Positions 2,261 to 27,500 of a stretch of DNA of 34,288 bases are shown here, piece after piece. Position numbers and translations under genes: made by a program. The notes under the pieces are model-generated. The model was not told where the DNA came from. It did not search any database and worked only from the letters and a program-made list of their open reading frames with translations. This DNA is from Nitrospirae bacterium RBG_13_39_12 (GTDB lineage Bacteria; Nitrospirota; Thermodesulfovibrionia; Thermodesulfovibrionales; SM23-35): the NCBI GenBank assembly GCA_001805125.1, contig MHEF01000022.1, forward strand, positions 1 to 34,288, given 5' to 3'. Positions within the stretch are counted from its first letter, which is position 1; every line of letters begins with the position of its first letter.

Positions 2261-2764
2261 ATGGTAAAGAAAAAGAATAATAAGAAAGACAAGAAACCGA
2301 AGACTAAATCAAAAACTAGAATTGAGACTAAACCAAAAACCAAGCTTAGGGCTAAACCAAAGGCTAAAAAAAGTACTAAAATAAGAAAAGCGTTACGAAT
2401 CCCAACTAGAACAAAGAAGATTCTGGAGGTCAGGAAAAAGCTTATATGTCAAAAAGAGGCTCTTCTTGCTGGTGCAGAAGAAGCACTGAATGAGCTTCCA
2501 GAGCAAACAACATTTCCAGACCTCGGCGACCAGGCAACTGCAGAAACAGACAGAAGCCTTATGCTAAGACTGAGAGGAAGAGAACGCAAACTTTTAAAAA
2601 AAATAGAAGAAGCTATAGAGAGAATAGACCAAGGTATATTTGGGATATGCGACAAATGTGGAGAAGATATAGATATAAGAAGGCTTGAGGCAAGGCCTGT
2701 CACAACAATGTGTATTGAATGTAAAACACTTCAAGAGGAAGAAGAGAAACTAACGGAAAAATAG
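2261..2764 (+). CDS. DksA/TraR-family C4 zinc-finger protein with lysine-rich N-terminal tail
   Basis: 167 aa. The C-terminal part has a coiled-coil tip 'DLGDQA' (DxxDxA) and the zinc finger 'CDKCGEDI...CIECK' (Cys130/133/151/154). Residues 1-55 are a K/P/T-rich tail with KPKTK/KPKAK repeats. AGGAG lies 7 nt upstream of the ATG. Confidence 0.8.
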   Translation: MVKKKNNKKDKKPKTKSKTRIETKPKTKLRAKPKAKKSTKIRKALRIPTRTKKILEVRKKLICQKEALLAGAEEALNELPEQTTFPDLGDQATAETDRSLMLRLRGRERKLLKKIEEAIERIDQGIFGICDKCGEDIDIRRLEARPVTTMCIECKTLQEEEEKLTEK

Positions 2765-2789: not shown

Positions 2790-3593
2790 TTATCCTTTTA
2801 TTTTCAAGTTATAACTGTCTTTTAAGCTGTCTCCCAGTGTATTAAAACATAAAGCAGTAACAGCGATCATTAGACCAGGGAAAAATACCATCCACGGATA
2901 TGTTGAAATAAAGACCCTGTTTGCACTTATCATCGAACCCCATGTTGCAACAGGAGGCTGTGCGCCTAATCCTAAAAAACTTAATGAGGCTTCTGTTAAT
3001 ATATAACCCCCTAGTTTCAATCCCATCATAACAAGTAGAAGAGGAGTACACTGGGGCATGAGATGTCTGAAAAGGATTCTCATATTACTGCATCCCAAAG
3101 CCCTTGCAGCCTCGATGAAAAGAGCTTCTTTCAGAGTTAGTATATATCCTCTGATTATCCTTGCAAATGAGGCCCATCCTACTGCAGTAATCGCTATCAT
3201 CACAGTATAAATACCAGGAGGAAGAATAATTGAAATACCTATAGCCAGAAGAAGTGCAGGAAATGAAAGTATGAGATCTACAAATGACATAATAGCTGTA
3301 TCAACTTTACCTCCCAAAAACCCAGCGCAGAGTCCGATAACAAGCCCTATCCCCATAGATAATAGTGTAGCTGTTACTGCAACAACTATTGATATCCTCC
3401 CTCCATAAAGTATTCTCGAAAATATATCTCTTCCCTTATTATCTGTCCCGAGTATATGTTTTAGGCTCGGGGGCTCTTTAATATGGTCGAGATTTATCAT
3501 GTTAGGGTCGTATTTGGATATCAATGGTGCCATAATAGAAAAAAAGCATATTAAGATTAGTATGGCTACTGATATCTTACCTGCTGTTTTCAT
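2790..3593 (-). CDS. ABC peptide transporter permease (DppC/OppC type)
   Basis: 267 aa and multi-TM. It has the N-terminal 'ILGTDNKGRDIFSRILYGGRISI' signature of DppC/OppC and the EAA-like loop 'FIEAARALGCSNMRILFRHLMP'. It overlaps the upstream permease by 17 nt. Confidence 0.85.
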   Translation of the reverse strand: MKTAGKISVAILILICFFSIMAPLISKYDPNMINLDHIKEPPSLKHILGTDNKGRDIFSRILYGGRISIVVAVTATLLSMGIGLVIGLCAGFLGGKVDTAIMSFVDLILSFPALLLAIGISIILPPGIYTVMIAITAVGWASFARIIRGYILTLKEALFIEAARALGCSNMRILFRHLMPQCTPLLLVMMGLKLGGYILTEASLSFLGLGAQPPVATWGSMISANRVFISTYPWMVFFPGLMIAVTALCFNTLGDSLKDSYNLKIKG

Positions 3594-4464
3594 ATAATCT
3601 CACTCTCGGATCAATATAATGGTAAATAACATCTACAAACAGATTTATAAGTACAAAAATTACGGTACATGCAATTACACAGCCCATTACCACAGGATAG
3701 TCCCTTTTTATAATGCCTTCCATGGTAAATCTACCTATTCCGTCCCAGCCAAAAATTGTCTCTGTAAGTACTGCACCATTCAGATAGCTTCCAAAATCAA
3801 GACCTATTACAGTTACAATAGGAATGAGTGCATTTTTAAAGATATGGATAAGTTTTATTTTAAGCTCTGCTATTCCTTTTGCTCTCGCTGTATTAACAAA
3901 AGGCATATCTAAAATTTCTATTATTGTAGTTCTTGTTACCCTTGACAGTGTTGCAATGGCGGGTAGAGAGAGAGTTAATGATGGCAGGATAAGAAACCTT
4001 ATATCTCCGGTACCAGATGGGGGAAAGATTTTCAGTTTGAGACTGAAAAAAAGCATTATCAAAAGTCCGCTCCAAAAAACAGGAACACTAAGTCCCGTCA
4101 CAGAGACAGATGATATAAGTCTGTCCATAAAAGTATCTTTTTTATAAGCAGAAATTAACCCGAGAATCAATCCAACAGGGATTGCAATAATCATTGCTGT
4201 TAATGCAAGTTTTAATGTATTAGGAAATTTTAAAAGCAGATCGTCAAATACTCTCCTGTTTGTATAATAAGAACGACCAAACTCTCCTTTAATAAGTAAT
4301 CCTACATATCCTAAATACTGTCTTAACAAATTTTTATCAGTACCTAATTCTTTTCTAATTTTCTCAATAACGTCCGGGTGGGCTCTTTCTCCTACAATAC
4401 TCAATACAGGATCGCCAGGAAGTGCCTTTATTATGATAAAAGTAAGCAGAGTTATACCTAACAA
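3577..4464 (-). CDS. ABC peptide transporter permease (DppB/OppB type)
   Basis: 'LPGDPV...GERA', 'LGYVGLLIKGEFGRSY' and 'FVNTARAKGI' are typical of DppB/OppB. The listed start is a TTG. The frame is open upstream to 4518, and an ATT at 4507-4509 sits 5 nt after AAGGAG (4515-4520), so the true N-terminus is probably about 15 codons longer. Confidence 0.8.
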   Translation of the reverse strand: MLGITLLTFIIIKALPGDPVLSIVGERAHPDVIEKIRKELGTDKNLLRQYLGYVGLLIKGEFGRSYYTNRRVFDDLLLKFPNTLKLALTAMIIAIPVGLILGLISAYKKDTFMDRLISSVSVTGLSVPVFWSGLLIMLFFSLKLKIFPPSGTGDIRFLILPSLTLSLPAIATLSRVTRTTIIEILDMPFVNTARAKGIAELKIKLIHIFKNALIPIVTVIGLDFGSYLNGAVLTETIFGWDGIGRFTMEGIIKRDYPVVMGCVIACTVIFVLINLFVDVIYHYIDPRVRLYENSR

Positions 4465-4571
4465 GAGAGGGAAAAGAAGAAATAATTTTTTTATAAGATA
4501 AGCCTTAATTGTATCTCCTTACATTACTCTTTTTTATTATTTGTATTTCAGACATCAGTTATTTTTACAAT

Positions 4572-6125
4572 TTATAGTGATATCTCTGTTCCTTTATCAA
4601 TGCTATAAATTAGGTAATTTTTAAAGTTTCTTACCGTAGGCTGTTTTATTATAAAATCGGTTCTGTGCCATAAAAAAACCCAAGGAGAATCTGATACAAT
4701 AATTCGTTCTGCCTGTTTATAAAACAATGACCTCTTTTTAGCATCCATCGTATATTGTCCTTTTTCTATCAAGTAATCAACAGTAGTATTGCTGTATCTT
4801 GTTCTATTCCCAGCTGAACCAAAATTAGAGGAGTGAAATAAAGGAAAAAGAAAATTTTCAGGATCAGGATAATCAGCCCACCAGCTTATATAAAACATAT
4901 CAGGCTCACCATTATTTAAAGACTCCTTGTAAGCACTCCATTCAAGCTGTTTTATATTTATATTTATCCCAACAGCATTGATATAAGATTGTATAACCTC
5001 TGCTATATCAATTGCTTCTTGGTCTGCAGTTATGTAAAATTTTACTTCGATACCTTCTAAGCCCTCTTTTTTAATTATTTCTATTGATTTGTTAGGATTG
5101 TATTCATTAATATTAGGTTTATTCCAGTTTCTAATAATATCAGGAACAGGGCCTGATGCTAATCTACCTCGCTTTTCATAAATAGTATTAAGAATTTTTT
5201 CTCTGTCAATTGCGTAAGTGATGGCTTTCCTGAGAGCTCTGTTACTAAAGGGTAGTCTTGAACAATTTAGACCAAGATAATAAGTATTAAGTCCTTCAAT
5301 AGATGAAATAAGATTCTTTTTTTGAAGATCGTTTTTATATCTCGAGTACTCTGACGCTGGTATTGTGATTACATCAATGTTTCCAACATCAAACTCTGTG
5401 ACTGCTGTAAGATCCTCAGGTATTATTCTGTATATGATACCTTTAATTTTTGCATGTATATCAAAATAATGGTAATTTTTTAATAGTCTAATCTCCCTAT
5501 TTGGCAACCATTCTTCAAGGATAAATGGACCGGTACCTACAGGATGGGTGGAGAAGTCAGGCCCCCATCTCTCAACTTCCTCTATCGGAACAATATATGC
5601 AGCTGGCGTGGTTAAGAGATTTATAAAGGGAGAAAAAGGTTTTTTGAGGCGTATCTTAATGGTATAATCATCAATTGTTTTTATTCCTTTAACATTATCA
5701 GCTTTTCCTTCCATAAATTCATCTGCACCAAGGATTTTTTCTAGCACCCAAGTATTAGGTGACTTATTCTTAGGGTTTAATAATCTATTAAAGGAATACT
5801 TGATATCATTAGCCTTAACTTCACGATTATTCGAGAAGAATACACCTTGTTTGAGCCTGAAAATATATGTTAGGCCGTCTCCAGATATAACCCAATTTTT
5901 AGCAATGTCCGGATGTATTTTTAGATCTTCTCCGATTTTGACTAAGCCATTAAACAGCTTTGCTGAAATTGAACCACCTGTTACATCAACTATAAGGGCT
6001 GGATCGAGTGTAGTTGGGTTTGAATTAAGTCTGTAATATATATAACCTTTTTCTCTGTTTTGTGAAGAACATGCTGTGATGATAACTAAAATGAAAATTG
6101 CAACAAATAAAACTCGGCTCTTCAC
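4572..6125 (-). CDS. ABC transporter substrate-binding lipoprotein, family 5 (DppA/OppA-like)
   Basis: 517 aa with the lipoprotein signal 'FILVIITAC|SS'. Family-5 SBP blocks include 'LDPA', 'GLVKIGEDLKIHPDIAKNW', 'GTGPF' and 'WWADYPDPENF'. It starts at GTG, 6 nt after the stop of the upstream gene. Confidence 0.85.
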   Translation of the reverse strand: MKSRVLFVAIFILVIITACSSQNREKGYIYYRLNSNPTTLDPALIVDVTGGSISAKLFNGLVKIGEDLKIHPDIAKNWVISGDGLTYIFRLKQGVFFSNNREVKANDIKYSFNRLLNPKNKSPNTWVLEKILGADEFMEGKADNVKGIKTIDDYTIKIRLKKPFSPFINLLTTPAAYIVPIEEVERWGPDFSTHPVGTGPFILEEWLPNREIRLLKNYHYFDIHAKIKGIIYRIIPEDLTAVTEFDVGNIDVITIPASEYSRYKNDLQKKNLISSIEGLNTYYLGLNCSRLPFSNRALRKAITYAIDREKILNTIYEKRGRLASGPVPDIIRNWNKPNINEYNPNKSIEIIKKEGLEGIEVKFYITADQEAIDIAEVIQSYINAVGININIKQLEWSAYKESLNNGEPDMFYISWWADYPDPENFLFPLFHSSNFGSAGNRTRYSNTTVDYLIEKGQYTMDAKKRSLFYKQAERIIVSDSPWVFLWHRTDFIIKQPTVRNFKNYLIYSIDKGTEISL

Positions 6126-6131
6126 CTTGGA

Positions 6132-7253
6132 CTAAAACCTTAAAAAAGCACCTATGCTTCCAGAATCTTTAAACTTTTTGTTATCAGATGTAACCTCTAC
6201 CAATGCTCCCTGCTCAACTGCTTTTTGTGCTGCAAGATCAACAATATAGTTTACTTTCTGAGTCTTGCCTTTACAATATGGACATGCTGAGATATGCTGG
6301 ATAGAGAGATAGCCACAATTGTTACATTTCAGTCCAGAATGTCTATAATCTTTTATAAAAATAAGTTTCATAATCCTTCCTTCCTGTATTGCATTAAGTA
6401 CATTTTCTATACCTATGACAGCATTTTCATTCTTCATCGCTTTTGTAACAAGATCTTCAATAGTTTTATCTTCTTTCTGTTTTTCAAATGCCCTGAGTAT
6501 AGGTTCTGTCTTTTTTAATATCTCCTTGCTATTTGCGAACATTTCAGCCTGAAATGTTCCAATGATCTTTTCATTTACTGTCTGTGGAAATAGAGCCTTT
6601 ACTTTTGTGACAGCATCTTCTGAACCACCGATTATAAGCCGTCCTACGTTTTCACGTGAAAGAAATATATCCAATTGCTTAACCACTTCCTTTAAATGTA
6701 AGGATACATGATAATCTGTATGCCTTTCATAACTCTTTTCCGAAAGAGAATACCAACCACCTTTTTTATGTTTTCCTGGGACATTTTCAGAATGAACCTC
6801 AGTATATTCTTCTATTTCACCAATGTGTATGATAAATAAACGTGCTGATTCTTTATCAACTAATAAAATGGCGTACCTTTGATAGTTGTCTAGGATGTCA
6901 AGAAGCGGTTTTATATATGGTGTTTTGTCCAATATAATTTCATTTTTTATGGGAACTGAAAGATGAAATTCTACCCAGAATTTCTTTTCTTGAGAAGTCA
7001 GGATTACAAGTCCTTTTTTAAATATTCTCTTGTTTGCCATAACATAAGCATCAATTTTTTCAAAGTCACCATTTGTTCTCTTTATTTCTTTTTTATCCAT
7101 CTTTTCCAATGTTTCTTTAATCATATTTTTTACATGTATAACATAATCATATTTTTTATTTGTAATCGGGTTAACATTCAAATAAAGGCTTACAAAATAA
7201 GCCTCACCAGCACGCATCTTCGCTATCTCTCTAAGTTCTTCACGATTAAGCAT
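6132..7253 (-). CDS. eRF1/Pelota-superfamily protein (bacterial eRF1-like, baeRF/Vms1-related type) with inserted zinc ribbon
   Basis: 373 aa. The central loop 'PGKHKKGGWYS' (GGW at nt 6753-6761) lies where eRF1 carries GGQ. The C-terminal third matches eRF1/Pelota domain 3 ('GIENVLNAIQEGRIMKLIFI' ... 'SGSIGAFLRF'), interrupted by 'CNNCG...CPYCKG' (nt 6273-6326). A strong AGGAGGAGGA SD is present. Confidence 0.65.
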   Translation of the reverse strand: MLNREELREIAKMRAGEAYFVSLYLNVNPITNKKYDYVIHVKNMIKETLEKMDKKEIKRTNGDFEKIDAYVMANKRIFKKGLVILTSQEKKFWVEFHLSVPIKNEIILDKTPYIKPLLDILDNYQRYAILLVDKESARLFIIHIGEIEEYTEVHSENVPGKHKKGGWYSLSEKSYERHTDYHVSLHLKEVVKQLDIFLSRENVGRLIIGGSEDAVTKVKALFPQTVNEKIIGTFQAEMFANSKEILKKTEPILRAFEKQKEDKTIEDLVTKAMKNENAVIGIENVLNAIQEGRIMKLIFIKDYRHSGLKCNNCGYLSIQHISACPYCKGKTQKVNYIVDLAAQKAVEQGALVEVTSDNKKFKDSGSIGAFLRF

Positions 7254-7289
7254 TCATTCCTCCTCCTAATTGAAGTTATAGTATAGTAC

Positions 7290-7955
7290 TTATTTATTAT
7301 GTGATGATGCCTGTACAAATAAGTTAAAAAGATTCAAGGAAATTTCATCGTCTTTCATCCTCTCTGGATGCCACTGCACCCCTATAAGAAAAGGATAATC
7401 TTTAAGATTAAATGCTTCGATAAGATTATCAGTAGAATAAGCAAATGACGAAAGGCCAGCACCGAGTTCCTTTATGGCCTGATGATGTGTACTATTTACA
7501 GAAAACCTGCCTTTTTTCAAAAACTTGTTTTCTGCAATCACAGCTATATGATAATCCTTTTTATGATTAATTTCTACTTTCAACTGAAAATCTATATCCT
7601 GGTATAACGACCCTCCAAACGCAACGTTTATGAGCTGCATCCCGTAACATATACCAAGGACCGGTTTACGAAATTTCATTAGATTTTTAAGCAGAGAAAA
7701 CTCAAAATTACTCCTATCTTTCGACACCGGTTTTACCTTAAGCATTGGGGCTTCATTATAATAAACCGGGTCGAGATCATCCCCTCCGGGTATGAGTAGT
7801 CCGTCAATTATTCCTGCGTAGAGTGATGTATCCCCCGCTGGAGGAATTAATACCGGGGACCCGCCTGCCATAACTATAGATTCAGAATACTGGCATTTTA
7901 TTTTTAAGTATTCACCTTCTATATCGGTTGTTATACCTATTATCGGACTTTTCAT
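7290..7955 (-). CDS. class I glutamine amidotransferase-like gamma-glutamyl hydrolase (peptidase C26, PuuD-like)
   Basis: 221 aa. It has the nucleophile elbow 'GICYGMQLINVAFGG' plus 'STHHQAI' and 'GVQWHPE', matching the C26/PuuD catalytic triad context. Confidence 0.85.
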   Translation of the reverse strand: MKSPIIGITTDIEGEYLKIKCQYSESIVMAGGSPVLIPPAGDTSLYAGIIDGLLIPGGDDLDPVYYNEAPMLKVKPVSKDRSNFEFSLLKNLMKFRKPVLGICYGMQLINVAFGGSLYQDIDFQLKVEINHKKDYHIAVIAENKFLKKGRFSVNSTHHQAIKELGAGLSSFAYSTDNLIEAFNLKDYPFLIGVQWHPERMKDDEISLNLFNLFVQASSHNK

Positions 7956-8049: not shown

Positions 8050-9681
8050 CTATCTTCCATGTCTGAGTATTTTACCCGCATTAACACCTGTCAATCTTCC
8101 TTCCCATACAGCAGGCAGTCCGTTGATGATTACATAATAAATCCCTTTCGGCTTCAAGAAAGGTTCGTTATATGTTGCTCTATCAATTATCTTTCCTTGG
8201 TCAAAAACAACAATGTCTGCAAAATAACCTTTTTTTATAGCTCCTCTTTTTTTTATGCTGAATGTCCTGGCAGGTAACATTGTTATTTTTTGTATGGCCT
8301 TACCCATACTCATAATTCTTTCTTCTCTTATATGTTTCCCTAAAAACCTCGGGAAACTTCCATAACCTCTCGGATGAGGCTTACCTTTATGAGTTGGACC
8401 GCTATCACAACGTGCAGAACTGTCAGTTCCTATCATTATATATGGAAGTGAAAGAAATCTTCTGAGATTATCCTCTTTCATTACTGAAAATATAGCACTG
8501 GCCCGTAGCTTCTCTTCGATAAGTATTTGAAATAATATATCGATAGGCTTAGAAGTTTTTCGACTCGCAATATAAGCGATGCTTTTGCCTTCCATCCATC
8601 TATTTTTTTTTGAGGATACAGACGCTATATTGATACTTTCCCAGTATCCTTTTCGATAGTATTCATTCAGTATTTCTTTTTTCATGGTCTTCTGACAATC
8701 TAAATTCTTCAACTTCTTCAATTCTTCTTCAGCGCCTCCTTCATATGCCCATGACGGAAGCATTGTATCAAGATCAGTAGATGAGGCATTATAAGGGTAT
8801 CTGTCACATGTTATTTCTATACCTTTCTCCCTTGCTTTTTCTATTAGTAAAACAGCATCGTCGATCTTATACCAGTTCTTCTTACCACTTGTTTTTATAT
8901 GAGAAATATGAACCTTAATATCTGCTTCTCTACCTATTCTTATTATCTCTTTGATAGATTCTAGTAATTCATCCCCTTCGCTCCTCATATGGGAAGCAAA
9001 AATAAGTTTATTACAACATTTTGCTATTTCAGTAAGTTCTTCTGTCGTTGAATATATACCAGGCGGGTATATCAATCCTGTTGAAATCCCTACAGCGCCT
9101 TCCGAGATTGCTTTTCTTAAAAGACCTTTCATTTTCTTTATTTCCGATAAAGTTAGTGTTTTGTCTTTATAGCCTGTTATACACGCTCTTATATTTCCAT
9201 GGCCCGCAAGAGTAACAAAATTGAGAGATATACCCTTTTTAAGAATTTCATAATATTCTTTAAAAGTTGACCAGCGTTCTTCTATACCTAGCTCCGCTAA
9301 GTCGGTTTCTCTTTGTTCCAATGCCTCACCATAGAGTGGTGCAGCAGAAAGACCACAGTTGCCATTGATTTCAGTTGTTATACCCTGACATATCTTACCT
9401 TCTGCGCGAGGGTCAGCAAGTAGCGTGAATTCAGAATGTGCATGAGTATCTATAAACCCAGGCGCTACTGATAAACCTTCTGCTTCTATAACTCTGTCAA
9501 ATCCTCTCCTACCCTCTTTCTTAAAAGAGGTGTATGAATGATTAAACTGCTGACTTCTAATTTTTGATTTCTTGTTTATAAAAGCAATCTTATCTCCTGA
9601 GATACCTATGTCTGCTTCATATGGTTCCAAGCCATAACCATCAAAAATTAGACCACCTTTGATTAATAAATCAAGATTCAT
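8050..9681 (-). CDS. N-acyl-D-amino-acid deacylase (D-aminoacylase) family amidohydrolase
   Basis: 543 aa. The N-terminal beta-sandwich 'DLLIKGGLIFDG...ADIGISGDKIAFI', the metal site 'PGFIDTHAHSE' and the C-terminal 'GYFADIVVFD' are characteristic of the D-aminoacylase branch of the amidohydrolase superfamily. Confidence 0.8.
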   Translation of the reverse strand: MNLDLLIKGGLIFDGYGLEPYEADIGISGDKIAFINKKSKIRSQQFNHSYTSFKKEGRRGFDRVIEAEGLSVAPGFIDTHAHSEFTLLADPRAEGKICQGITTEINGNCGLSAAPLYGEALEQRETDLAELGIEERWSTFKEYYEILKKGISLNFVTLAGHGNIRACITGYKDKTLTLSEIKKMKGLLRKAISEGAVGISTGLIYPPGIYSTTEELTEIAKCCNKLIFASHMRSEGDELLESIKEIIRIGREADIKVHISHIKTSGKKNWYKIDDAVLLIEKAREKGIEITCDRYPYNASSTDLDTMLPSWAYEGGAEEELKKLKNLDCQKTMKKEILNEYYRKGYWESINIASVSSKKNRWMEGKSIAYIASRKTSKPIDILFQILIEEKLRASAIFSVMKEDNLRRFLSLPYIMIGTDSSARCDSGPTHKGKPHPRGYGSFPRFLGKHIREERIMSMGKAIQKITMLPARTFSIKKRGAIKKGYFADIVVFDQGKIIDRATYNEPFLKPKGIYYVIINGLPAVWEGRLTGVNAGKILRHGR

Positions 9682-14458: not shown

Positions 14459-15031
14459 ATGAACCTTATTCTTAGATTATGGTTTGTACATAGGTTAAAA
14501 GGTATTTTACTATGCATCGTTCTTCTCACACTTTTCACCTCTCTTCAGGTATTTGCTGAAAGTGCTGACACTGCATTTCAGAAAGAAATTGCCACATATG
14601 AGCTATGGACTGTTGTAATCAATTTTTCGGATGTCTCTAACCCTCGATGTCAGGTGAAGGGCATAGCTATGTCTGCGGACATGAATTATAGCGGACCAGT
14701 AACAATCTGGAAAGAACAACGTAAGGATAAAATCATCCCTGTGGCTGAAGTGGGTCTTGCTAAGAGTCCAGACCCAGGTGATGTTATCCTACTCAAAGAA
14801 GGTTCTGGTATTCATACACTTATGATTAAGAGTATGAGCACTAAAGGAACGCGCAGAGACTCTTTCCCTTACATGGCATTATTCAACGTAGGGAATGGTA
14901 TGATCGAAAAAGTGGCGGAAACAGATTTTGCTATTGTAACATTAATTGATTTACATGATAATAATCACGATCTACTAATTTCATTAAAAGGCTTAAAACA
15001 GGCGTGGGGTCGTTGTGATCCGAAGAAGTAG
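14459..15031 (+). CDS. hypothetical secreted protein
   Basis: 190 aa with AGAGGAA 6 nt upstream of the ATG. An N-terminal hydrophobic signal-like segment 'LLCIVLLTLFTSLQVFA|ES' is present. I recognise no family motif. The stop codon lies inside the right inverted repeat. Confidence 0.5.
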   Translation: MNLILRLWFVHRLKGILLCIVLLTLFTSLQVFAESADTAFQKEIATYELWTVVINFSDVSNPRCQVKGIAMSADMNYSGPVTIWKEQRKDKIIPVAEVGLAKSPDPGDVILLKEGSGIHTLMIKSMSTKGTRRDSFPYMALFNVGNGMIEKVAETDFAIVTLIDLHDNNHDLLISLKGLKQAWGRCDPKK

Positions 15032-15199: not shown

Positions 15200-15976
15200 A
15201 TGTGTACAGAGCCGATTAGAGAATTCCCTCATTTTATTGGGATTGAGGAAGAAAATGTCTTTAAAAGCATTGCTAATTTAGGCGAAGATTTTTTTCTTAT
15301 CCATAACTTGGATATACTATTCAAAACTTCATTGGAACTAGAACCTCTTGATGACGTTAATCTTAAGATTCCCGCTTTTCTTTATCTTATTATACATGGT
15401 GAATTTTATCAGGGAATGACGGCATTTTTGCGAATGCACCAGTCCAAATCTTTTGTTAGTCTACGGATAGCTCTTGACTGTGCATTTACGGCTTACTACT
15501 TAATGAAACATCCGGACAAGACAGACATTTACCTGAGTAAATTGAATGACGATAAAAATCCAGAATGGAACAAAATATTCTTCAATATCAAAAGAACTAT
15601 TAAAGATGATATTGATAATTTCCCCTTAGCCAAAGGGCTACCTGAAACTCACGAGTTTTGCAGTATTTATTCCCATTCAGACGCAATAGGCCTTCTGCAT
15701 AGATACAGAATTAGCGAATCAAAATTGGAAGCGACATATTTTGACTATGAACCTAAGCTTGATGATTACAATAAATGGCTTGCACAATTAATAGGAACAT
15801 TTTTTAGGATTTACTTAATATTCTGGCAAGAAATATTTAAGCAAAAAGCTGGGGCGAAAAAAGAACAGATTGAAACTTTATTAAGGGAATATTCCTTACG
15901 GTTAAACGCTTTTTTAAAGCGGTATCCTCTCGGTGAGGTCGAAACAAAAGAGGGGAAAAAGGACAGTTCTATTTAA
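15200..15976 (+). CDS. hypothetical protein (predicted all-helical, cytoplasmic)
   Basis: 258-aa ORF with coding-like composition. I recognise no motif and no TM or signal segment. The start codon is uncertain (weak GAAGGAAA 11 nt upstream). Confidence 0.5.
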   Translation: MCTEPIREFPHFIGIEEENVFKSIANLGEDFFLIHNLDILFKTSLELEPLDDVNLKIPAFLYLIIHGEFYQGMTAFLRMHQSKSFVSLRIALDCAFTAYYLMKHPDKTDIYLSKLNDDKNPEWNKIFFNIKRTIKDDIDNFPLAKGLPETHEFCSIYSHSDAIGLLHRYRISESKLEATYFDYEPKLDDYNKWLAQLIGTFFRIYLIFWQEIFKQKAGAKKEQIETLLREYSLRLNAFLKRYPLGEVETKEGKKDSSI

Positions 15977-16048
15977 AAGCATGCCCAAATCTTCATCTTA
16001 CATGTACTGCCATTGTCATGAAGGCAATTATTAGTTTATCATGTAGTT

Positions 16049-16330
16049 ATGAATATTCGTTATTATATCAACCCGGAAACAGGTCTTCCTCATATCTATA
16101 ATCACAATGTATTTGAGCACGAGGTGGAAGATGTATTATTAAAGCCGGGGGAAGACCGTCTTGGCAAAGAAGGTTCACGAATAGCTCTGGGACAGACAAG
16201 TGCGGGACGTTATTTAAGAGTAATTTATGTTCCAGACCCTGAACCGGAGAGTGTTTTTGTCATAACTGCATTTGAATTGTCCGGCAAACCATTAACAGCA
16301 TATAAACGCAGGAGACGAAAGAAGAAATGA
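16049..16330 (+). CDS. putative type II toxin (BrnT/DUF497-like fold)
   Basis: 93 aa. 'IYNHNVFEHEVEDVL...GEDR...SRIALGQTSAGRYLRVIYVP...VFVITAFEL' follows the BrnT-like pattern and ends in a basic tail. It has a 4-nt ATGA overlap with the downstream small gene. Confidence 0.55.
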   Translation: MNIRYYINPETGLPHIYNHNVFEHEVEDVLLKPGEDRLGKEGSRIALGQTSAGRYLRVIYVPDPEPESVFVITAFELSGKPLTAYKRRRRKKK

Positions 16331-16548
16331 AAAAAAGTAGATTTCCAAAAGGATGGGATGAAAAAAGGGTGAAGAAGGTTCTCGCCCATTATGAGAAACA
16401 GACCGAAGAAGAAGCCTTGGCCGGGGATGAAGCAGCATATGAAGATAAGTCTCAAGCCATTATAGAAATCCCAGTTCAATTAGTATCTACCGTTAGGGAG
16501 CTTATAGCAAAACATCAAATACGTCATTTGAAGAAAACTGCCAGATAA
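16327..16548 (+). CDS. putative cognate antitoxin (BrnA-like partner)
   Basis: 73 aa and acidic ('WDEKRVKKVLAHYEKQTEEEALAGDEAAYED...IPVQLVSTVRELIAKH'). It is translationally coupled to the upstream toxin-like ORF, the classic two-gene TA layout. Confidence 0.5.
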   Translation: MKKSRFPKGWDEKRVKKVLAHYEKQTEEEALAGDEAAYEDKSQAIIEIPVQLVSTVRELIAKHQIRHLKKTAR

Positions 16549-16811
16549 CTTTCAACATCCTGTTTGTTTTGTATTTTAAAGTTACCTGTAACGAAACTAT
16601 CTTCTTATTATTGGAAGAAAAGCATCATCTAACAAAGAAAGACTTGCAATCTACTTCTTACTTCTTGAGAGAGAGGATAAAAGAGTCTAACTTGTTTATT
16701 GATATTTGTAATAGGAAGCAAAGGATTGGGGTCAAAGCTGAATTATACATTTTATAAAACATAACTTTGCTTACAGAGTCAGTCTTTAAATGATGTTGAA
16801 AATCTCCTTTT

Positions 16812-16973
16812 GTCACCCTGAATTCATTTCAGGGTCTCATAATATATTGAATTATTAGATGCTGTTCACCTTGGGCGAATCCGCTTAGGCAGAAAACAAT
16901 CCTGCCCTGAAGAGATTCTGAACCAAGTTCAGAATGACAAGATTAGGGTTTAGCATGACATATTAGGCAGAAA
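16812..16973. repeat. cluster of REP/MITE-like palindromic units
   Basis: GTCACCCTGAA-TTCAT-TTCAGGGTC lies at 16812-16836, and an inverted relative GATTCTGAAC-CAA-GTTCAGAATGAC at 16914-16938. Degenerate half-units are GATGCTG (16858) and AGCATGAC (16952). There is also a 12-nt direct repeat TTAGGCAGAAAA at 16885-16896 and 16963-16974. Confidence 0.55.
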
Positions 16974-16982
16974 AAATATTAT

Positions 16983-24413: not shown

Positions 24414-24514
24414 TTATAATCACCTGTATCTATCACTAAAGCTATTATTGTGCTGAATAAGCACCGATAATGTAAAAAGCTCATTGTCTATTATATAATA
24501 TACAAGGATTGAAA

Positions 24515-27500
24515 ATGGCTTCAGATATACAAACAGCAACTTCATCAAAATATGAAATCTTACGGGAAGTAGTTAAAGACTACCCCGGAATCCTTAGTTC
24601 AACCGAACCACTATTAAATGAACTTAATAATCATCCTAAAAAATGGGGTACTGTTGTAAAAGAAATGCGAACTTATGCCATGAAAAATTTCTATTTACAT
24701 GATCACTACGAAAAAGGCATTGAAGCAGTCAGTACTATTATTGATGTTTTACTGGAAGCTATTACCTTATCTGACATTCCTGTACAACAAGCAGCTATAG
24801 ACTGTCTTTTGTTTTATCTGGAAAAAATACTGCTTGATTGTGAAAATATCAAAAAATATAAATCTGTACTAAATGAATGCTTCACCAATTTAAATAACCT
24901 GCCTGAAAAACAGTTTTTCCTACTGATAACCAACCCTCATCAGTTAAAAAAGCTAGGACAGATCATACTTACAAAGATGCCTGCCGGTTTTGACTTTGAA
25001 GAACTAAATAATCTTTTGTACAGGTCTCTTCTTATAACTTATAAATACTGGCTTAATGTTGAAGACCCTGTAAAATGGTTTAAAAAAACTATAGATACTT
25101 CTTTAGGTGAAAAGTTCAACAACGAAATAGAAGAATCATTTTATTCTGTATCACATGATAATTTTAATAGTTTAATTCTTCACCTTAAGAGTATCAAGAA
25201 ACTTAAAGATCAATCTCTATTCCTCGAAGAACTTTTAAGACTACCAGGGTTTCTACAGTTGGTTAAATTCTATGAAGATATTACCTCTACATTACCTCAA
25301 ACAGGTGATATATATAAAGACTTCAACTTGAAGGTGTCATATCTTCTGAAAATACTTGAAACCAATGGACTTTCCAGTATACATGAAAGTACATTCAGGG
25401 AAATTAATCGTACCATATCAAATGCTATCAAAAATGTACCACCATATAAAATAAAGGATATACTTTCTGAAACATTTGCTATTTTGAAAAATAGTAACAA
25501 TATATATCCTGAAGCAGCTCTTTACTGCATACAGGGGATAGGCAATGAGATATTCAACCTGAATGATAGTAATCTTGTAGAATGGTACATACAGAAAATC
25601 ATCCCATTAGGATTCCAGTACCCGAATATAAAGGGAGCAACCGATGAGTGGCAGGTTAAATCTAACCATGCCCATTTAGAAAATATACGTGTATGGCTGG
25701 AATTGATCGAAAATAATCCAAAATGGTCTAAGTCACTTATTTCTGCTTTAATCATTAATATCACCTTAGGCGGAATACATATAAGTGATACCGATCTTTT
25801 CCAGAAAGACATTACCAAACTTCTTAACAGTGACATCAAACCAGTCTATTACTTAATTAAACAATTGGCCAAATTGTTTCCTGCCTATTTTAGTGAAATA
25901 GGTGCTGAAGGCGCATTACGTGAGGTATCAACTGAACTGGATGAGATTAATGGAAGGTCTGATTTACTTGTACATTTTTTACGAAAACAAAGCCATGTTG
26001 AGAGCAGTGCTCGTGTTGTTAGTCTCATAGAGGAGATTATAAAGTTCTGGCTTACAAGAGACAAAGCCTCTTTAAAAGAATTTTTACCTGAAGATATTTA
26101 TCCTCATGTCGATTCATCAGGTATATACATAGACGAACTCAATATTATTTTTAGCTCTATTTTCAACAGCAAAGGAATCAGTAATATTACTGACCTTTTA
26201 AATTTAAAAGAAGAAGATTTCAAAGCTATTACTGATGAAATTCCCAATGTATCTGAAAAAGAGAAAAGACGGGCATTGCTGACTATTAAATTTTATAAGC
26301 TGCTTGACAAGAAATACAAACTGAACCCTAGGGATATTAAAGACCAACTAAAAATTTCTCAGGGTTTAGGGCTTCCAAATACAGAGTTGCTGATTAATAT
26401 TTTAGAAAAAGGAAATGTCTATGAGCGGCTTGAAGGTATCTTAGGCTATCTGCAATTATTAAAGGATATCATCCTTTCTCCTGAAAGGTATGAAGCTGTT
26501 GAGAATATATTCCGCAAGAGGCATATTGCCGCAGGTATACCTTCAATGTACGGAAGTTATCATGAAAGAAAATTTGATGCGCTTTCTTTAACGTTTCGTC
26601 TGGAGAATTATGCCAACATTCTTTTTGAAGAATTAATAAATTCAATTAATCTCAAATTTATCACAAGAGCTTCATTATTTCAGATCAAAAATTTCATAAA
26701 ACTATTCTTTACTGCCATGCAATTAGATGGGATATCCTCCAGCAGGCTTGAGAATACACTGGAACTTTTATCCGTAGCTTTAGAGGTAAGAAGATTTACG
26801 TTTACACAGTATATCGACATATTCAGGAGCTTTTCAGAAGCTGTTCAGGATATAGTTAATACTTATTACAGCGGCATACATAAAAACAATCTCAGGCACA
26901 TTATACTTCAGCTCGGTTCAGATAAAATATTGCCTAAATACTTTGTACAGCATGACAGGCACAGCGACTTTGAGCTTATTAATATGGTAACAGAAGCGTT
27001 TCTAAGAGACTTTGTTTCCAGCTCTTTTGGTCTACAGCAGCTGGACAATTTTATAATTAAAATACTTAAAACGCTATTTAAACAGGCAGAAGATTTGGAT
27101 ATACAGAATCTGGACTTGCTGATGAGCTACGACCCTAAGAAAGCTTTATCCAGCATTTATACCCCTAATAAAGCCACCTACGACAGAATTCATCTGGGTA
27201 ATAAAGGATATAACCTTATAAGAATGTCATCTTTGGATATCTCTGTTCCCCCGGGTTTTATTATCACTTCAGAGGTGTTTCGTTGCAGACAGGCAATAAA
27301 TAAATTCCGTTTTGTCAGAGATAATCTTAATAAAAAGATTAACAAACAGATTTTGGAACTCGAAAGAGTTACAGGCAAATATTTCGGGCATATTGATAAT
27401 CCATTGCTTGTATCAATAAGGAGTGGTGGGGCAATCTCCTTGCCCGGCATGATGATTTCTTTTCTTAATGTTGGAATTAACGAAGACATTGTAGCAGGAT

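What the first reader, a model, noticed from the sequence alone, without database searches (positions are those of the whole stretch)
6132..7253. Bacterial eRF1/Pelota-like protein with a GGW loop and a zinc ribbon, embedded in a peptide-uptake/peptidase operon
What the sequence shows:
- The C-terminal third matches eRF1/Pelota domain 3 ('GIENVLNAIQEGRIMKLIFI', terminal 'SIGAFLRF').
- A CxxC...CxxC ribbon (nt 6273-6326) is inserted where eRF1 has its mini-domain.
- The central domain has 'HKKGGWYSLSEKSYERH', with GGW at nt 6753-6761 in the position of the GGQ loop. No Gln directly follows.

Established knowledge: bacteria normally terminate with RF1/RF2. eRF1-like (baeRF / Vms1-VLRF1-related) proteins in bacteria are known only from comparative genomics, as far as I recall, and lack experimental function.

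The context here is unusual. The gene sits 36 nt downstream of a C26 gamma-glutamyl hydrolase and 6 nt upstream of the Dpp-type binding protein, which suggests co-translation with peptide salvage genes. Possible roles are ribosome rescue or peptidyl-tRNA hydrolysis, or a regulatory link between translation stress and peptide import.
Basis: partly seen in the sequence, partly recalled or inferred. Interest (0 to 1): 0.65.

Follow-up and report, generated by a model that had tools for sequence, protein, structure and literature searches.

The report
Balon-like bacterial eRF1 homologue, GGW loop
The gene encodes a bacterial relative of the archaeal/eukaryotic release factor eRF1, from the same catalogued family as the ribosome hibernation factor Balon, so it is most likely a stress-time ribosome-parking protein and its place next to peptide-transport genes is specific to one lineage.

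Summary
ORF 6132-7253 (-) encodes a 373-aa, three-domain aeRF1-fold protein. It has GGW exactly where aRF1/eRF1 has GGQ, and an intact CxxC...CxxC zinc ribbon at the eRF1 mini-domain site.

The interpretation needs updating. The protein belongs to Pfam baeRF_family10 (PF18854). I found that Msmeg1130, a cryo-EM-validated Balon ribosome hibernation factor (Nature 2024), scores in the same Pfam family. Msmeg1130 is also the best PDB match by both sequence and predicted fold. Bacterial eRF1-like proteins are therefore no longer known only from comparative genomics.

GGW is a family signature, not a local quirk:
- It is present in 75/76 Thermodesulfovibrionia orthologues and about 70% of 250 distant relatives; GGQ appears in 1/250.
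- The aRF1-type "VPGKHKxGG" context is kept.
- The NIKS and YxCxxxF stop-codon motifs are absent.

The peptidase/Dpp neighbourhood recurs within Thermodesulfovibrionia (C26 upstream 57/66, SBP5 downstream 37/63). It is absent in distant relatives, whose neighbours include Hsp20, ClpB, MerR and ClpP/SppA-type proteases.

Best reading (about 0.5): an mRNA-independent A-site hibernation/stress factor whose GGW loop occupies the peptidyl-transferase centre without hydrolysis. Main rival (about 0.25): a stress-time peptidyl-tRNA hydrolase. This is a new member of a known kind, of moderate interest.

The parts
6132..7253 (-). Complete ORF, 373 aa (stop TAG 6132-6134): baeRF-1 family 10 / Balon-type aeRF1 homologue
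   Evidence: Pfam PF18854 scores 114.3 bits. The AF2 model has pLDDT 90.6. The best PDB hits are Balon Msmeg1130, then aRF1/eRF1.
7259..7267 (-). Shine-Dalgarno AGGAGGAGG, 5 nt upstream of the ATG
   Evidence: Read directly from the sequence. It lies within the 36-nt spacer after the C26 gene. No terminator-like site was found in the spacer.
6882..7253 (-). N-terminal domain (about residues 1-124), equivalent to the aeRF1 codon-recognition domain but without NIKS or YxCxxxF. It keeps the conserved SLYL (22-25) and P-Y-I-K-P-L (112-117).
   Evidence: Alignment to aRF1. Column conservation: the NIKS-equivalent hairpin tip, residues 44-61, is unconserved; P116 and L117 are each 95% conserved. Msmeg1130 has 'IHPL' aligned to 'IKPL' here.
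6504..6881 (-). Middle (RNase-H-like, peptidyl-transferase-centre-reaching) domain, about residues 125-250
   Evidence: The Pfam baeRF_family10 match covers residues 112-251. eRF1_2 is sub-threshold.
6753..6779 (-). Loop P159-G-K-H-K-K-G-G-W167, where GGW replaces GGQ. This is the flexible tip (pLDDT below 50 for residues 163-167).
   Evidence: Searches give the alignment to GGQ. GGW is present in 75/76 orthologues. G165 85%, G166 93%, W167 76% in 250 distant relatives, with GGQ in 1/250. One search gives the pLDDT.
6720..6752 (-). Post-loop segment Y168-S-L-S-E-K-S-Y-E-R-H178. It has a 3-residue insertion relative to the majority 'GGWSQARFQRH', with Glu172 and Glu176 where most relatives have Gln. 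R177 and H178 are conserved.
6135..6503 (-). C-terminal Pelota/eRF1 domain-3-like domain (about residues 251-373), ending in IGAFLRF
   Evidence: Pfam eRF1_3 matches residues 260-373 at E 2.6e-4, sub-threshold.
6273..6326 (-). CxxC-x10-CxxC zinc ribbon (C310, C313, C324, C327) inserted in the C-terminal domain. It is at the site of the eRF1 mini-domain and of the Cys-less insert of Msmeg1130; that this insert is Balon's EF-Tu-contacting beta-hairpin is inferred from the papers, not checked against the 8v9l coordinates.
   Evidence: Cys 96-100% conserved; 76/76 orthologues; alignment to aRF1, eRF1 and Msmeg1130. PMC6514570 and PMC10901736 describe the ZnR / beta-hairpin site.
7290..7955 (-). 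Context: upstream Peptidase_C26 / class-I glutamine amidotransferase-like hydrolase gene
   Evidence: It lies upstream on the same strand in 57/66 Thermodesulfovibrionia loci, but is directly adjacent in only 13.
8050..9681 (-). Context: amidohydrolase family gene (Amidohydro_3)
   Evidence: It lies upstream in 49/66 related loci.
2790..6125 (-). Context: SBP_bac_5 binding lipoprotein (4572-6125) and two Dpp/Opp-type permeases (3577-4464, 2790-3593). No ABC ATPase gene was found in the window.
   Evidence: SBP5 lies downstream in 37/63 related loci. It is not among the top neighbour families in distant relatives.
2261..2764 (+). Context: convergent DksA gene, a recurrent downstream neighbour
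   Evidence: TIGR02420 scores 119.2 vs a cut-off of 115.5. It lies downstream in 29 related loci and is directly adjacent in 8.

Best explanation
The gene encodes a Balon-type ribosome-binding factor of the bacterial aeRF1 clade (baeRF-1 family 10).

Proposed mechanism (inferred unless marked):
- Under stress or starvation the protein enters the ribosomal A site independently of mRNA. It has lost the NIKS and YxCxxxF codon-reading motifs (shown).
- Its N domain contacts the decoding centre.
- Its middle domain inserts the aRF1-derived 'PGKHKKGG' loop into the peptidyl-transferase centre.
- There Trp167, which sits exactly at the catalytic Gln of GGQ (shown), stacks on or plugs the active site instead of activating water. 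The ribosome is parked rather than the peptide released.
- The zinc ribbon in the C domain occupies the site that in Msmeg1130 holds a same-length Cys-less insert (shown), which I take to be Balon's EF-Tu-contacting beta-hairpin (inferred), and probably mediates the EF-Tu / GTPase-centre contact.

The gene is probably co-transcribed with peptidase and peptide-transporter genes in this lineage. I read that as lineage-specific gene order, not as part of the mechanism.
For: Shown here:
- Full-length three-domain aeRF1 fold with a confident model (pLDDT 90.6, pTM 0.74).
- Best structural matches are Balon Msmeg1130 8v9l/8v9j (E 2e-26, TM 0.62). These rank ahead of aRF1 (1e-20), eRF1, P. urativorans Balon (1e-18), Rv2629 (3.5e-18), Pelota (1e-10) and Vms1 (3.6e-3).
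- Best PDB sequence hit is Msmeg1130, both with the single sequence (3e-10) and with the family profile (1.3e-32).
- Best NCBIfam hit is 'MSMEG_1130 family ribosome hibernation factor', full length, E 4e-29.
- Msmeg1130 itself scores 124.6 bits on Pfam baeRF_family10, the same family as the window protein at 114.3 bits.
- GGQ is replaced by GGW in 75/76 orthologues and about 70-76% of 250 distant relatives, with GGQ in only 1/250. This indicates selection for Trp and against Gln at that position.
- The nearby Gln of the majority 'GGWSQ' form is Glu here. It varies Q/E/G among syntenic orthologues, which argues against it being catalytic.
- The NIKS-equivalent region is unconserved.
- Distant family members sit next to Hsp20 (5 loci), ClpB (3-4 loci, including a MerR-baeRF10-ClpB arrangement), Usp, PCMT and ClpP/SppA-type proteases. 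These are the stress-operon contexts reported for Balon (PMC10901736).

From the literature:
- Msmeg1130 and Rv2629 bind the A site and inhibit translation in vitro (PMC10901736).
Against: - The scores are far below NCBIfam's equivalog cut-offs for all three Balon families (101.8 vs 480, 68.5 vs 330, 48.8 vs 320). Identity to Msmeg1130 is only about 17%.
- Two of Balon's described hallmarks differ. Instead of a poorly conserved lasso loop and bL27 trap, this family keeps a tightly conserved, length-constrained aRF1-like 'VPGKHKxGG' loop. Burroughs & Aravind treat that property as typical of catalytically active families, and they singled out family 10 as possibly active (PMC6514570).
- Instead of a Cys-less beta-hairpin it keeps an intact zinc ribbon.
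- From my own knowledge, not checked here because the papers are not held: in bacterial RFs the backbone NH at the Gln position matters more for catalysis than the side chain. GGW therefore does not by itself exclude hydrolysis.
- In this window the neighbours are not stress genes.
- There are no expression or ribosome-binding data; no RNA-seq runs were found.
Confidence: 0.5

Rival explanations
1. It is an active, codon-independent peptidyl-tRNA hydrolase or ribosome-rescue factor. The aRF1-like GG loop enters the peptidyl-transferase centre and the backbone at the W167 position (or another loop residue) promotes hydrolysis of peptidyl-tRNA on stalled ribosomes.
For: - The loop context 'VPGKHKxGG' is retained almost letter for letter from aRF1.
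- G165, G166 and R177 are 85-94% conserved and loop length is constrained to two main classes. Burroughs & Aravind associate that pattern with active families, and they named family 10 as potentially catalytic (PMC6514570).
- The majority form GGWSQ fits their GxuQ motif.
- NCBI names close homologues 'Vms1/Ankzf1 family peptidyl-tRNA hydrolase'.
- Proteases (HtrA, ClpP-like, SppA, Tricorn) are frequent neighbours in distant relatives. That would suit disposal of released incomplete peptides.
Against: - The catalytic Gln position is Trp; GGQ is found in 1/250 relatives.
- The window protein has no Gln anywhere in the loop. The 'SQ' Gln is E, Q or G among orthologues in the same synteny.
- 'SQ' after GGQ is already present in A. 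pernix aRF1 (GGQSQ), so it may be an inherited helix-cap residue rather than a catalytic one.
- The only characterised member of the Pfam family (Msmeg1130) is a non-hydrolytic hibernation factor (PMC10901736).
- The Vms1/VLRF1 matches are marginal.
Confidence: 0.25
2. Its function is tied to the surrounding operon. It would be a translation-linked regulator or partner of peptide (possibly cell-wall peptide) uptake and degradation.
For: - The spacing is tight and on one strand (36 nt and 6 nt), the gene has its own strong SD, and no terminator was detected.
- The order AmiC-(CbiQ)-amidohydrolase-C26-...-baeRF10-(SBP5-DppBC) recurs across Thermodesulfovibrionia at 52-79% identity. C26 lies upstream in 57/66 loci and SBP5 downstream in 37/63.
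Against: - All of that recurrence is within one class, so it can be inherited gene order.
- The immediate neighbours change. An AI-2E transporter gene is inserted in 44/66 loci. The Dpp genes are missing, or apparently truncated, in many.
- About 10 orthologous loci have none of these neighbours.
- In 80 distant loci, none of SBP_bac_5, BPD_transp_1 or Peptidase_C26 is among the 25 commonest neighbour families.
- Nothing in the protein suggests peptide or small-molecule binding.
Confidence: 0.08
3. It is an alternative stop-codon-dependent release factor, a functional aRF1 retained in bacteria.
For: The family profile matches archaeal aRF1 almost as well as Balon (110 vs 116.6 bits). It has three domains and an intact zinc ribbon, like archaeal aRF1.
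Against: - The NIKS, YxCxxxF and GGQ motifs are all absent.
- TIGR03676 scores 76.5 vs a cut-off of 234.7.
- According to PMC6514570, baeRF-1 proteins never replace RF1/RF2.
Confidence: 0.03

Closest known systems
Balon, specifically the mycobacterial homologue Msmeg1130 (PDB 8v9j/8v9l; PMC10901736)
   Same: - Same Pfam family PF18854.
- Best sequence and fold match over the full length.
- Three aeRF1-like domains, with no NIKS and no GGQ.
- An insert of the same length at the same C-domain site.
- The wider family shares stress-gene neighbourhoods (Hsp20, ClpB).
   Different: - About 17% identity, far below NCBIfam's equivalog cut-offs.
- Msmeg1130 has 'RAGQM' in a diverged loop, whereas this family keeps aRF1's 'PGKHKxGG' followed by Trp.
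- Msmeg1130's C-domain insert has no cysteines, whereas here it is an intact CxxC...CxxC zinc ribbon.
- 'IKPL' aligns to Msmeg1130's 'IHPL', which may be the HP motif.
Archaeal aRF1 (PDB 4af1, 3agk) / eukaryotic eRF1
   Same: - Same fold and domain order.
- The loop 'VPGKHK-GG-x-S...R(F/Y)xR' is nearly identical.
- The insert lies at the mini-domain / zinc-ribbon site.
- The C-terminal 'GGIGAxLRY/F' ending is shared.
   Different: - GGQ is replaced by GGW.
- The NIKS and YxCxxxF stop-codon motifs are absent.
- TIGR03676 scores 76.5 vs 234.7.
- The host is bacterial and, from general knowledge, has RF1/RF2.
baeRF-1 family 10 as defined by Burroughs & Aravind 2019 (PMC6514570; Pfam PF18854)
   Same: It scores well above the gathering threshold. 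It has the full three-domain architecture with a zinc ribbon, and belongs to the family those authors flagged as the most aRF1-like.
   Different: The authors stress a conserved Gln and possible hydrolase activity. The window protein and its closest orthologues have no Gln in the loop (E172, E176). The conserved element is GGW, which the searchable text of that paper does not mention.
Vms1/ANKZF1 - VLRF1 clade (the name NCBI gives close homologues)
   Same: Same superfamily. The majority 'GWSQ' form of the wider family resembles the GxuQ motif.
   Different: - Pfam acVLRF1 only just passes (27.8 vs 27.1 bits).
- NCBIfam acVLRF1 scores 16.9 vs 125.
- Foldseek to Vms1 gives E 3.6e-3.
- There is no Gln here.
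- It keeps the N domain and the Pelota-like C domain that VLRF1 families modify or lose.
Pelota/Dom34
   Same: Superfamily fold. It is a non-catalytic A-site factor that acts with an EF-Tu-like GTPase.
   Different: The match is much weaker (Foldseek about 1e-10). There is no Sm-like N domain or loop A. The GG loop is retained here.

Membership tests
aeRF1 superfamily (fold level) | Three-domain architecture: N domain, RNase-H-like middle domain with a tip loop, and Pelota-like C domain | tested here: met
   AF2 model has pLDDT 90.6. Foldseek gives full-length hits to Balon, aRF1, eRF1 and Pelota.
Pfam baeRF_family10 (PF18854) | Score above the gathering threshold (27.1 bits) | tested here: met
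   114.3 bits, E 7.4e-33, residues 112-251. Distant relatives and Msmeg1130 also hit it.
Balon ribosome hibernation factors | NCBIfam equivalog cut-offs (MSMEG_1130 480; AOC03_06830 330; Rv2629 320) | tested here: not met
   Scores are 101.8, 68.5 and 48.8 bits. It is a homologue, not an equivalog.
Balon ribosome hibernation factors | Same curated domain family as an experimentally validated Balon | tested here: met
   Msmeg1130 residues 11-375, taken from the alignment, score 124.6 bits on PF18854.
Balon ribosome hibernation factors | Lacks the NIKS and GGQ motifs of aeRF1 | tested here: met
   GGW is at the GGQ site. The NIKS-equivalent hairpin tip is unconserved and there is no NIKS in the sequence.
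Balon ribosome hibernation factors | HP motif in the N domain contacting A1492/A1913 | tested here: inconclusive
   The paper gives no residue numbers in the text I could read. Msmeg1130 'IHPL' aligns to window 'IKPL' (residues 114-117), and P116 is 95% conserved in the family. Equating this with the HP motif is my inference.
Balon ribosome hibernation factors | Lasso loop around A2602 and a bL27 trap in the middle domain | tested here: inconclusive
   The loop here is aRF1-like in sequence and length, unlike Msmeg1130's diverged loop. I could not identify a bL27-trap equivalent without coordinates.
Balon ribosome hibernation factors | Cys-less beta-hairpin insertion in the C domain that contacts EF-Tu | tested here: not met
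   The window protein has an intact CxxC...CxxC zinc ribbon at the site where Msmeg1130 has a same-length insert without cysteines. I take that insert to be the paper's beta-hairpin; this was not checked against the coordinates. Burroughs & Aravind consider the hairpin a degenerate zinc ribbon (PMC6514570).
Balon ribosome hibernation factors | Binds the ribosomal A site, inhibits translation and aids recovery from stationary phase | not testable with these tools
   Needs biochemistry, cryo-EM or genetics.
Balon ribosome hibernation factors | Stress-response gene neighbourhood (Hsp20, RaiA, chaperones and so on) | tested here: inconclusive
   Not so in the window, where the neighbours are peptidase and transporter genes. 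It holds for distant family members: Hsp20 in 5 loci, ClpB in 3-4, MerR in 3, Usp in 2. No RaiA/HPF neighbour was seen.
Class-I release factor aRF1/eRF1 | GGQ catalytic motif | tested here: not met
   GGW here; GGQ occurs in 1 of 250 relatives.
Class-I release factor aRF1/eRF1 | NIKS and YxCxxxF stop-codon recognition motifs; TIGR03676 cut-off 234.7 | tested here: not met
   Both motifs are absent or unconserved. TIGR03676 scores 76.5 bits.
Vms1/ANKZF1-VLRF1 peptidyl-tRNA hydrolases | GxuQ / GGxSQ loop with a conserved Gln; family model cut-off | tested here: not met
   There is no Gln in the window protein's loop. NCBIfam acVLRF1 scores 16.9 vs 125. Foldseek to Vms1 gives E 3.6e-3. Pfam acVLRF1 is marginal at 27.8 vs 27.1.
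Pelota/Dom34 | Best match to Pelota profiles or structures; loop A; no GG loop | tested here: not met
   Pelota hits are 8-16 orders of magnitude weaker than Balon/aRF1. The GG loop is retained.

The most novel reading that the evidence does not exclude
The GGW-plus-zinc-ribbon proteins would be a mechanistically distinct class of A-site factor, intermediate between aRF1 and Balon. This group covers hundreds of 50%-identity clusters across Nitrospirota, Chloroflexota, Actinomycetota, Acidobacteriota and others. An aRF1-type loop would still be delivered fully into the peptidyl-transferase centre. There a Trp would replace the catalytic Gln, either plugging the A-site cleft as a protein mimic of an aromatic aminoacyl group, or supporting Gln-independent peptidyl-tRNA hydrolysis. 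In Thermodesulfovibrionia, expression would be coupled to a peptide or cell-wall-peptide recycling operon.
Probability: 0.15. Interest if true: 0.7.

Novelty: new member of a known kind. Interest (0 to 1): 0.4.

Why it matters
Ribosome hibernation by aeRF1-like proteins was only demonstrated in 2024, for three proteins from two phyla. This gene shows that a large, uncultured-lineage branch of the same Pfam family keeps far more of the ancestral release-factor machinery, namely the PTC loop and the zinc ribbon. Yet it has swapped the catalytic Gln for a conserved Trp.

That gives a clean, testable question: is GGW a hydrolysis-dead plug or a Gln-independent catalyst? The answer bears on how a release factor was converted into a hibernation factor. 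It also bears on whether database names such as 'Vms1/Ankzf1 family peptidyl-tRNA hydrolase' and 'peptide chain release factor subunit 1' are misleading for thousands of bacterial proteins. The peptide-transport context, by contrast, appears to be of local interest only.

Tried and rejected
- RNA evidence for co-transcription: no RNA runs hold the sequence. Only soil and sediment DNA metagenomes do.
- The Balon paper's supplementary species lists are not held as text, so I could not check whether Nitrospirota homologues were already counted.
- Papers on GGQ Gln substitutions (PMC2175178, PMC60236) are not held. The statement that the Gln side chain is partly dispensable in bacterial RFs rests on my memory only.
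- The search for related loci with a 50-sequence diverse alignment failed for lack of a conserved stretch. I replaced it with closer alignments.
- A first regex classification of the loop was misled by the 'PG' dipeptide. I replaced it with an alignment-based count.
- Literature searches for 'GGW motif', 'Balon-like' and 'bacterial aeRF1' found no description of this subgroup.
- Rfam and tRNA scans of the window found nothing.
- The promoter and terminator scans were no better than shuffled controls.
- Membership of Vms1/VLRF1, Pelota and canonical aRF1 was considered and rejected (see the membership test).
- I considered a cell-wall-peptide recycling theme for the operon (AmiC, amidohydrolase, C26, SBP5). 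NCBIfam gives only generic, below-cut-off names, so I do not claim it.
Full report
**1. What is there**

The ORF listing gives a 373-aa ORF at 6132..7253 on the minus strand with an ATG start. It is preceded by AGGAGGAGG at 7259-7267 (read).
- It lies 36 nt downstream of a Peptidase_C26/GATase gene (7290-7955).
- It lies 6 nt upstream of an SBP_bac_5 lipoprotein gene (4572-6125), which is followed by two Dpp/Opp-type permease genes.
G165-G166-W167 is nt 6753-6761, and C310...C327 is nt 6273-6326.

**2. Family assignment by sequence**

| Library | Match | Score | Cut-off / note |
|---|---|---|---|
| Pfam | baeRF_family10 (PF18854) | E 7.4e-33, 114.3 bits | well above threshold |
| Pfam | eRF1_2, eRF1_3 | weak | sub-threshold |
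| Pfam | acVLRF1 | 27.8 bits | 27.1 (marginal) |
| NCBIfam | MSMEG_1130 family ribosome hibernation factor (residues 2-372) | E 4e-29, 101.8 bits | 480 |
| NCBIfam | aRF1 (TIGR03676) | 76.5 bits | 234.7 |
| PDB sequences | Msmeg1130 Balon (8v9j) | E 3e-10 | best hit; eRF1s follow |
| PDB sequences, 50-sequence family profile | Msmeg1130 | 1.3e-32 | best hit |
| PDB sequences, 50-sequence family profile | Halobacterium aRF1 4af1 | 1.3e-30 | nearly tied |
| PDB sequences, 50-sequence family profile | Rv2629 | 6.5e-18 | also found |
| PDB sequences, 50-sequence family profile | P. urativorans Balon | 2.3e-12 | also found |

**3. Fold**

AlphaFold2 with that alignment gives pLDDT 90.6 and pTM 0.74. 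Only residues 163-167 (KGGW) fall below 50, as expected for a flexible tip loop. Foldseek against the PDB ranks as follows:

| Target | E-value |
|---|---|
| Msmeg1130 Balon (TM 0.62) | 2e-26 |
| aRF1 | 1e-20 |
| eRF1 | about 1e-19 |
| P. urativorans Balon | 1e-18 |
| Rv2629 | 3.5e-18 |
| Pelota | about 1e-10 |
| Vms1 | 3.6e-3 |

The eRF1/Pelota-like fold is confirmed. The nearest solved relatives are Balon proteins.

**4. The key link to known biology**

Helena-Bueno et al. (PMC10901736) showed the following:
- They lack NIKS and GGQ, inhibit translation in vitro and aid recovery from stationary phase.
- The authors count essentially all three-domain bacterial aeRF1 homologues as Balon homologues: 1,898 sequences from 23 phyla.

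I rebuilt Msmeg1130 residues 11-375 from the HMMER alignment and scanned it against Pfam. It scores 124.6 bits on baeRF_family10, the same family as the window protein.

**5. The GGW loop**

*Placement.* phmmer and profile alignments put W167 exactly on the Gln of GGQ. The flanking context is retained from aRF1:

| Protein | Loop sequence |
|---|---|
| Window protein | VPGKHKKGGWYSLSEKSYERH |
| Family consensus | VPGKHKQGGWSQARFQRH |
| A. pernix aRF1 | VPGKHKMGGQSQRRYERI |
| H. salinarum aRF1 | VPGKQRKGGQSAQRFARL |

*Conservation.*
- GGW is present in 75/76 Thermodesulfovibrionia orthologues.
- Among 250 more distant relatives (25-50% identity), 174 have GGW and 1 has GGQ. G165 is 85%, G166 93%, W167 76% and R177 94% conserved.

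*Loop classes.*
- The majority is the short form GGW[SA]Q (132/156 of short-loop GGW proteins).
- A minority, including the window's clade, has a 3-residue insertion. There Glu replaces both Gln residues, so 'SQARFQRH' becomes 'SEKSYERH'.
- A third class lacks GGW but keeps 'SQ'.

*The nearby Gln.* Within Thermodesulfovibrionia the position is Q in the 52-61% identity group ('GGWFALSQNHYERH'). It is E or occasionally G in the window's closer relatives. That Gln varies among orthologues, and 'SQ' already follows GGQ in A. pernix aRF1. It is therefore a poor candidate for a catalytic residue.

*Literature.* Burroughs & Aravind (PMC6514570) had flagged family 10 as possibly catalytic because of a conserved Gln. 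The searchable text of that paper does not mention GGW, and no other paper I could search does either.

**6. Other motifs**

- The hairpin tip that carries NIKS in aRF1 aligns to an unconserved, length-variable region (residues 44-61).
- The YxCxxxF segment aligns to 'EIILDKTPY', which does not carry that motif.
- P116-L117 are 95% conserved. Msmeg1130 has 'IHPL' where the window has 'IKPL'. This may be Balon's HP motif, but that is my inference.
- The four Cys of the ribbon are 96-100% conserved.
- The ribbon aligns to the aRF1 Cys-containing insert, to the eRF1 mini-domain, and to a same-length Cys-less insert in Msmeg1130.
- According to the two papers, that site holds the (degenerate) zinc ribbon, which is Balon's EF-Tu-contacting beta-hairpin.

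**7. Genomic context**

*Source.* Close homologues (52-79% identity) are all from Nitrospirota/Thermodesulfovibrionia MAGs. The source appears to be an uncultured soil or sediment member of that class.

*Within the class.* Across 80 genome loci the usual order is NifU, AmiC, (CbiQ), amidohydrolase, C26, (AI-2E transporter), baeRF10, (SBP5, DppB, DppC), then a convergent DksA.

| Neighbour | Frequency |
|---|---|
| C26 upstream | 57/66 loci (adjacent in 13; a ~1 kb gene intervenes in 44) |
| Amidohydrolase upstream | 49/66 |
| SBP5 downstream | 37/63 |
| DksA directly adjacent | 8 loci |

About ten orthologous loci have none of these neighbours.

*Outside the class.* Four long contigs show unrelated contexts. 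In 80 metagenome loci of the GGWSQ group I took the 121 ORFs immediately flanking the gene and scanned them against Pfam.
- The commonest families are SDH-type ClpP-like protease, Peptidase_S49, Hsp20 (5 loci), ClpB (3-4 loci, including MerR-baeRF10-ClpB in L117), Creatininase, MerR, Usp and PCMT.
- No peptide-transporter or C26 family is among the top 25.

The peptide-salvage linkage is real but lineage-specific. The wider family has the proteostasis and stress flavour reported for Balon.

**8. Mechanism**

*Shown:* fold, family, motif placement, conservation and context.

*Inferred:*
- The protein binds the A site without reading mRNA.
- It delivers an aRF1-like loop into the peptidyl-transferase centre.
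- There a Trp replaces the water-activating Gln.
- The zinc ribbon makes the EF-Tu / GTPase-centre contact.

I favour a non-hydrolytic hibernation or stress-parking role (0.5), for three reasons:
- The only characterised member of the Pfam family does this.
- Gln is strongly counter-selected at the catalytic position.
- The alternative Gln is dispensable among orthologues.

The main rival (0.25) is a codon-independent peptidyl-tRNA hydrolase. It is supported by the unusually strong, aRF1-like conservation and fixed length of the loop, and by protease-rich neighbourhoods. An operon-specific regulatory role (0.08) and a true stop-codon release factor (0.03) are unlikely.

**9. Novelty and verdict**

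The gene is a new member of a catalogued family (PF18854, the Balon-type baeRF-1 clade). What may be new is a subgroup signature that has not been described in the literature I could search:
- GGW on an aRF1-type loop.
- An intact zinc ribbon.
- A Q-to-E long-loop variant in Thermodesulfovibrionia.

This signature differs from the three Balons with structures at two of their hallmark features. Interest is moderate (0.4). The result corrects database names and poses a sharp biochemical question, but it does not reveal a new kind of system.

Noticed in passing
window 2790-6125 (-), and the whole window: The Dpp/Opp-type cluster has a binding protein and two permeases but no ABC ATPase gene. No ABC_tran ORF of 100 aa or more was found anywhere in the 34-kb window.
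   Followed up: partly
L003 9522-12249 and L004 9522-12249: In one related lineage (66% identical orthologue) the SBP5 and permease genes downstream are called as short fragments: 308 aa vs 517, and 249 and 155 aa vs 295 and 267. This suggests decay of the transporter while the baeRF10 gene stays intact.
   Followed up: no
L001 7100-8011; L002 1157-2068; L005 4038-5087: An AI-2E-family transporter gene sits between C26 and the baeRF10 gene and overlaps its start by 8-11 nt in these three loci. A gap of about 1 kb at this position is seen in 44/66 relatives but is not annotated there; the window genome lacks it.
   Followed up: partly
window 2261-2764 (+): A bona fide DksA gene (TIGR02420 119.2 vs cut-off 115.5) lies convergent to the cluster. 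It is a recurrent downstream neighbour of the baeRF10 gene, found in 29 loci and directly adjacent in 8. The pairing of a stringent-response cofactor with a putative hibernation factor is suggestive, but the two genes cannot be co-transcribed.
   Followed up: partly
window 24509-28666 (+): A 1385-aa ORF whose C-terminal ~500 residues match pyruvate phosphate dikinase / PEP-utilising domains (PPDK_N from residue 935, mobile domain 1291-1369). The first ~890 residues have no Pfam or NCBIfam match.
   Followed up: no
window 14459-15031 (+), 15200-15976 (+), and 15977-16982: Two ORFs of 190 and 258 aa have no Pfam match. They are followed by about 1 kb without any ORF of 100 aa or more.
   Followed up: no
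L056 1413-2516 and L065 1243-2358: Two contigs of the same MAG (DeMMO4_11) each carry a copy, and the copies are 71% identical. This means either two paralogues in one genome or a mixed bin. Balon genes are reported to be multi-copy in 38% of species (PMC10901736).
   Followed up: partly
P0274 (492 aa), P0129 (481 aa), P0133 (459 aa): Some family members carry N-terminal extensions of about 90-120 residues. P0274 has a precomputed PF13490 hit, which from my own knowledge is a zf-HC2 anti-sigma-factor zinc finger.
   Followed up: no
window residues E172 and E176 (nt 6726-6740); family alignment: The two Gln residues of the majority motif 'GGWSQARFQRH' tend to change together to Glu in the long-loop subgroup (giving, for example, 'EERRIERH' or 'SEKSYERH'). 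This hints that the two positions face a common partner.
   Followed up: partly
PDB 8v9j chain z (Msmeg1130), alignments: Msmeg1130 has A-G-Q ('ERAGQMR') at the columns aligned to GGQ/GGW, although the Balon paper describes it as lacking GGQ. It is a degenerate remnant rather than a complete loss.
   Followed up: no
L089 3584-5433 and 7321-12250; L091 747-2684 and 4994-5920; L132/L139 6407-8785: Distant family members often lie beside proteases or peptidases: two HtrA-like genes, an SDH/ClpP-like gene, Tricorn, Peptidase_M55, Peptidase_S9 and SppA/S49. I did not test this against a background frequency.
   Followed up: partly
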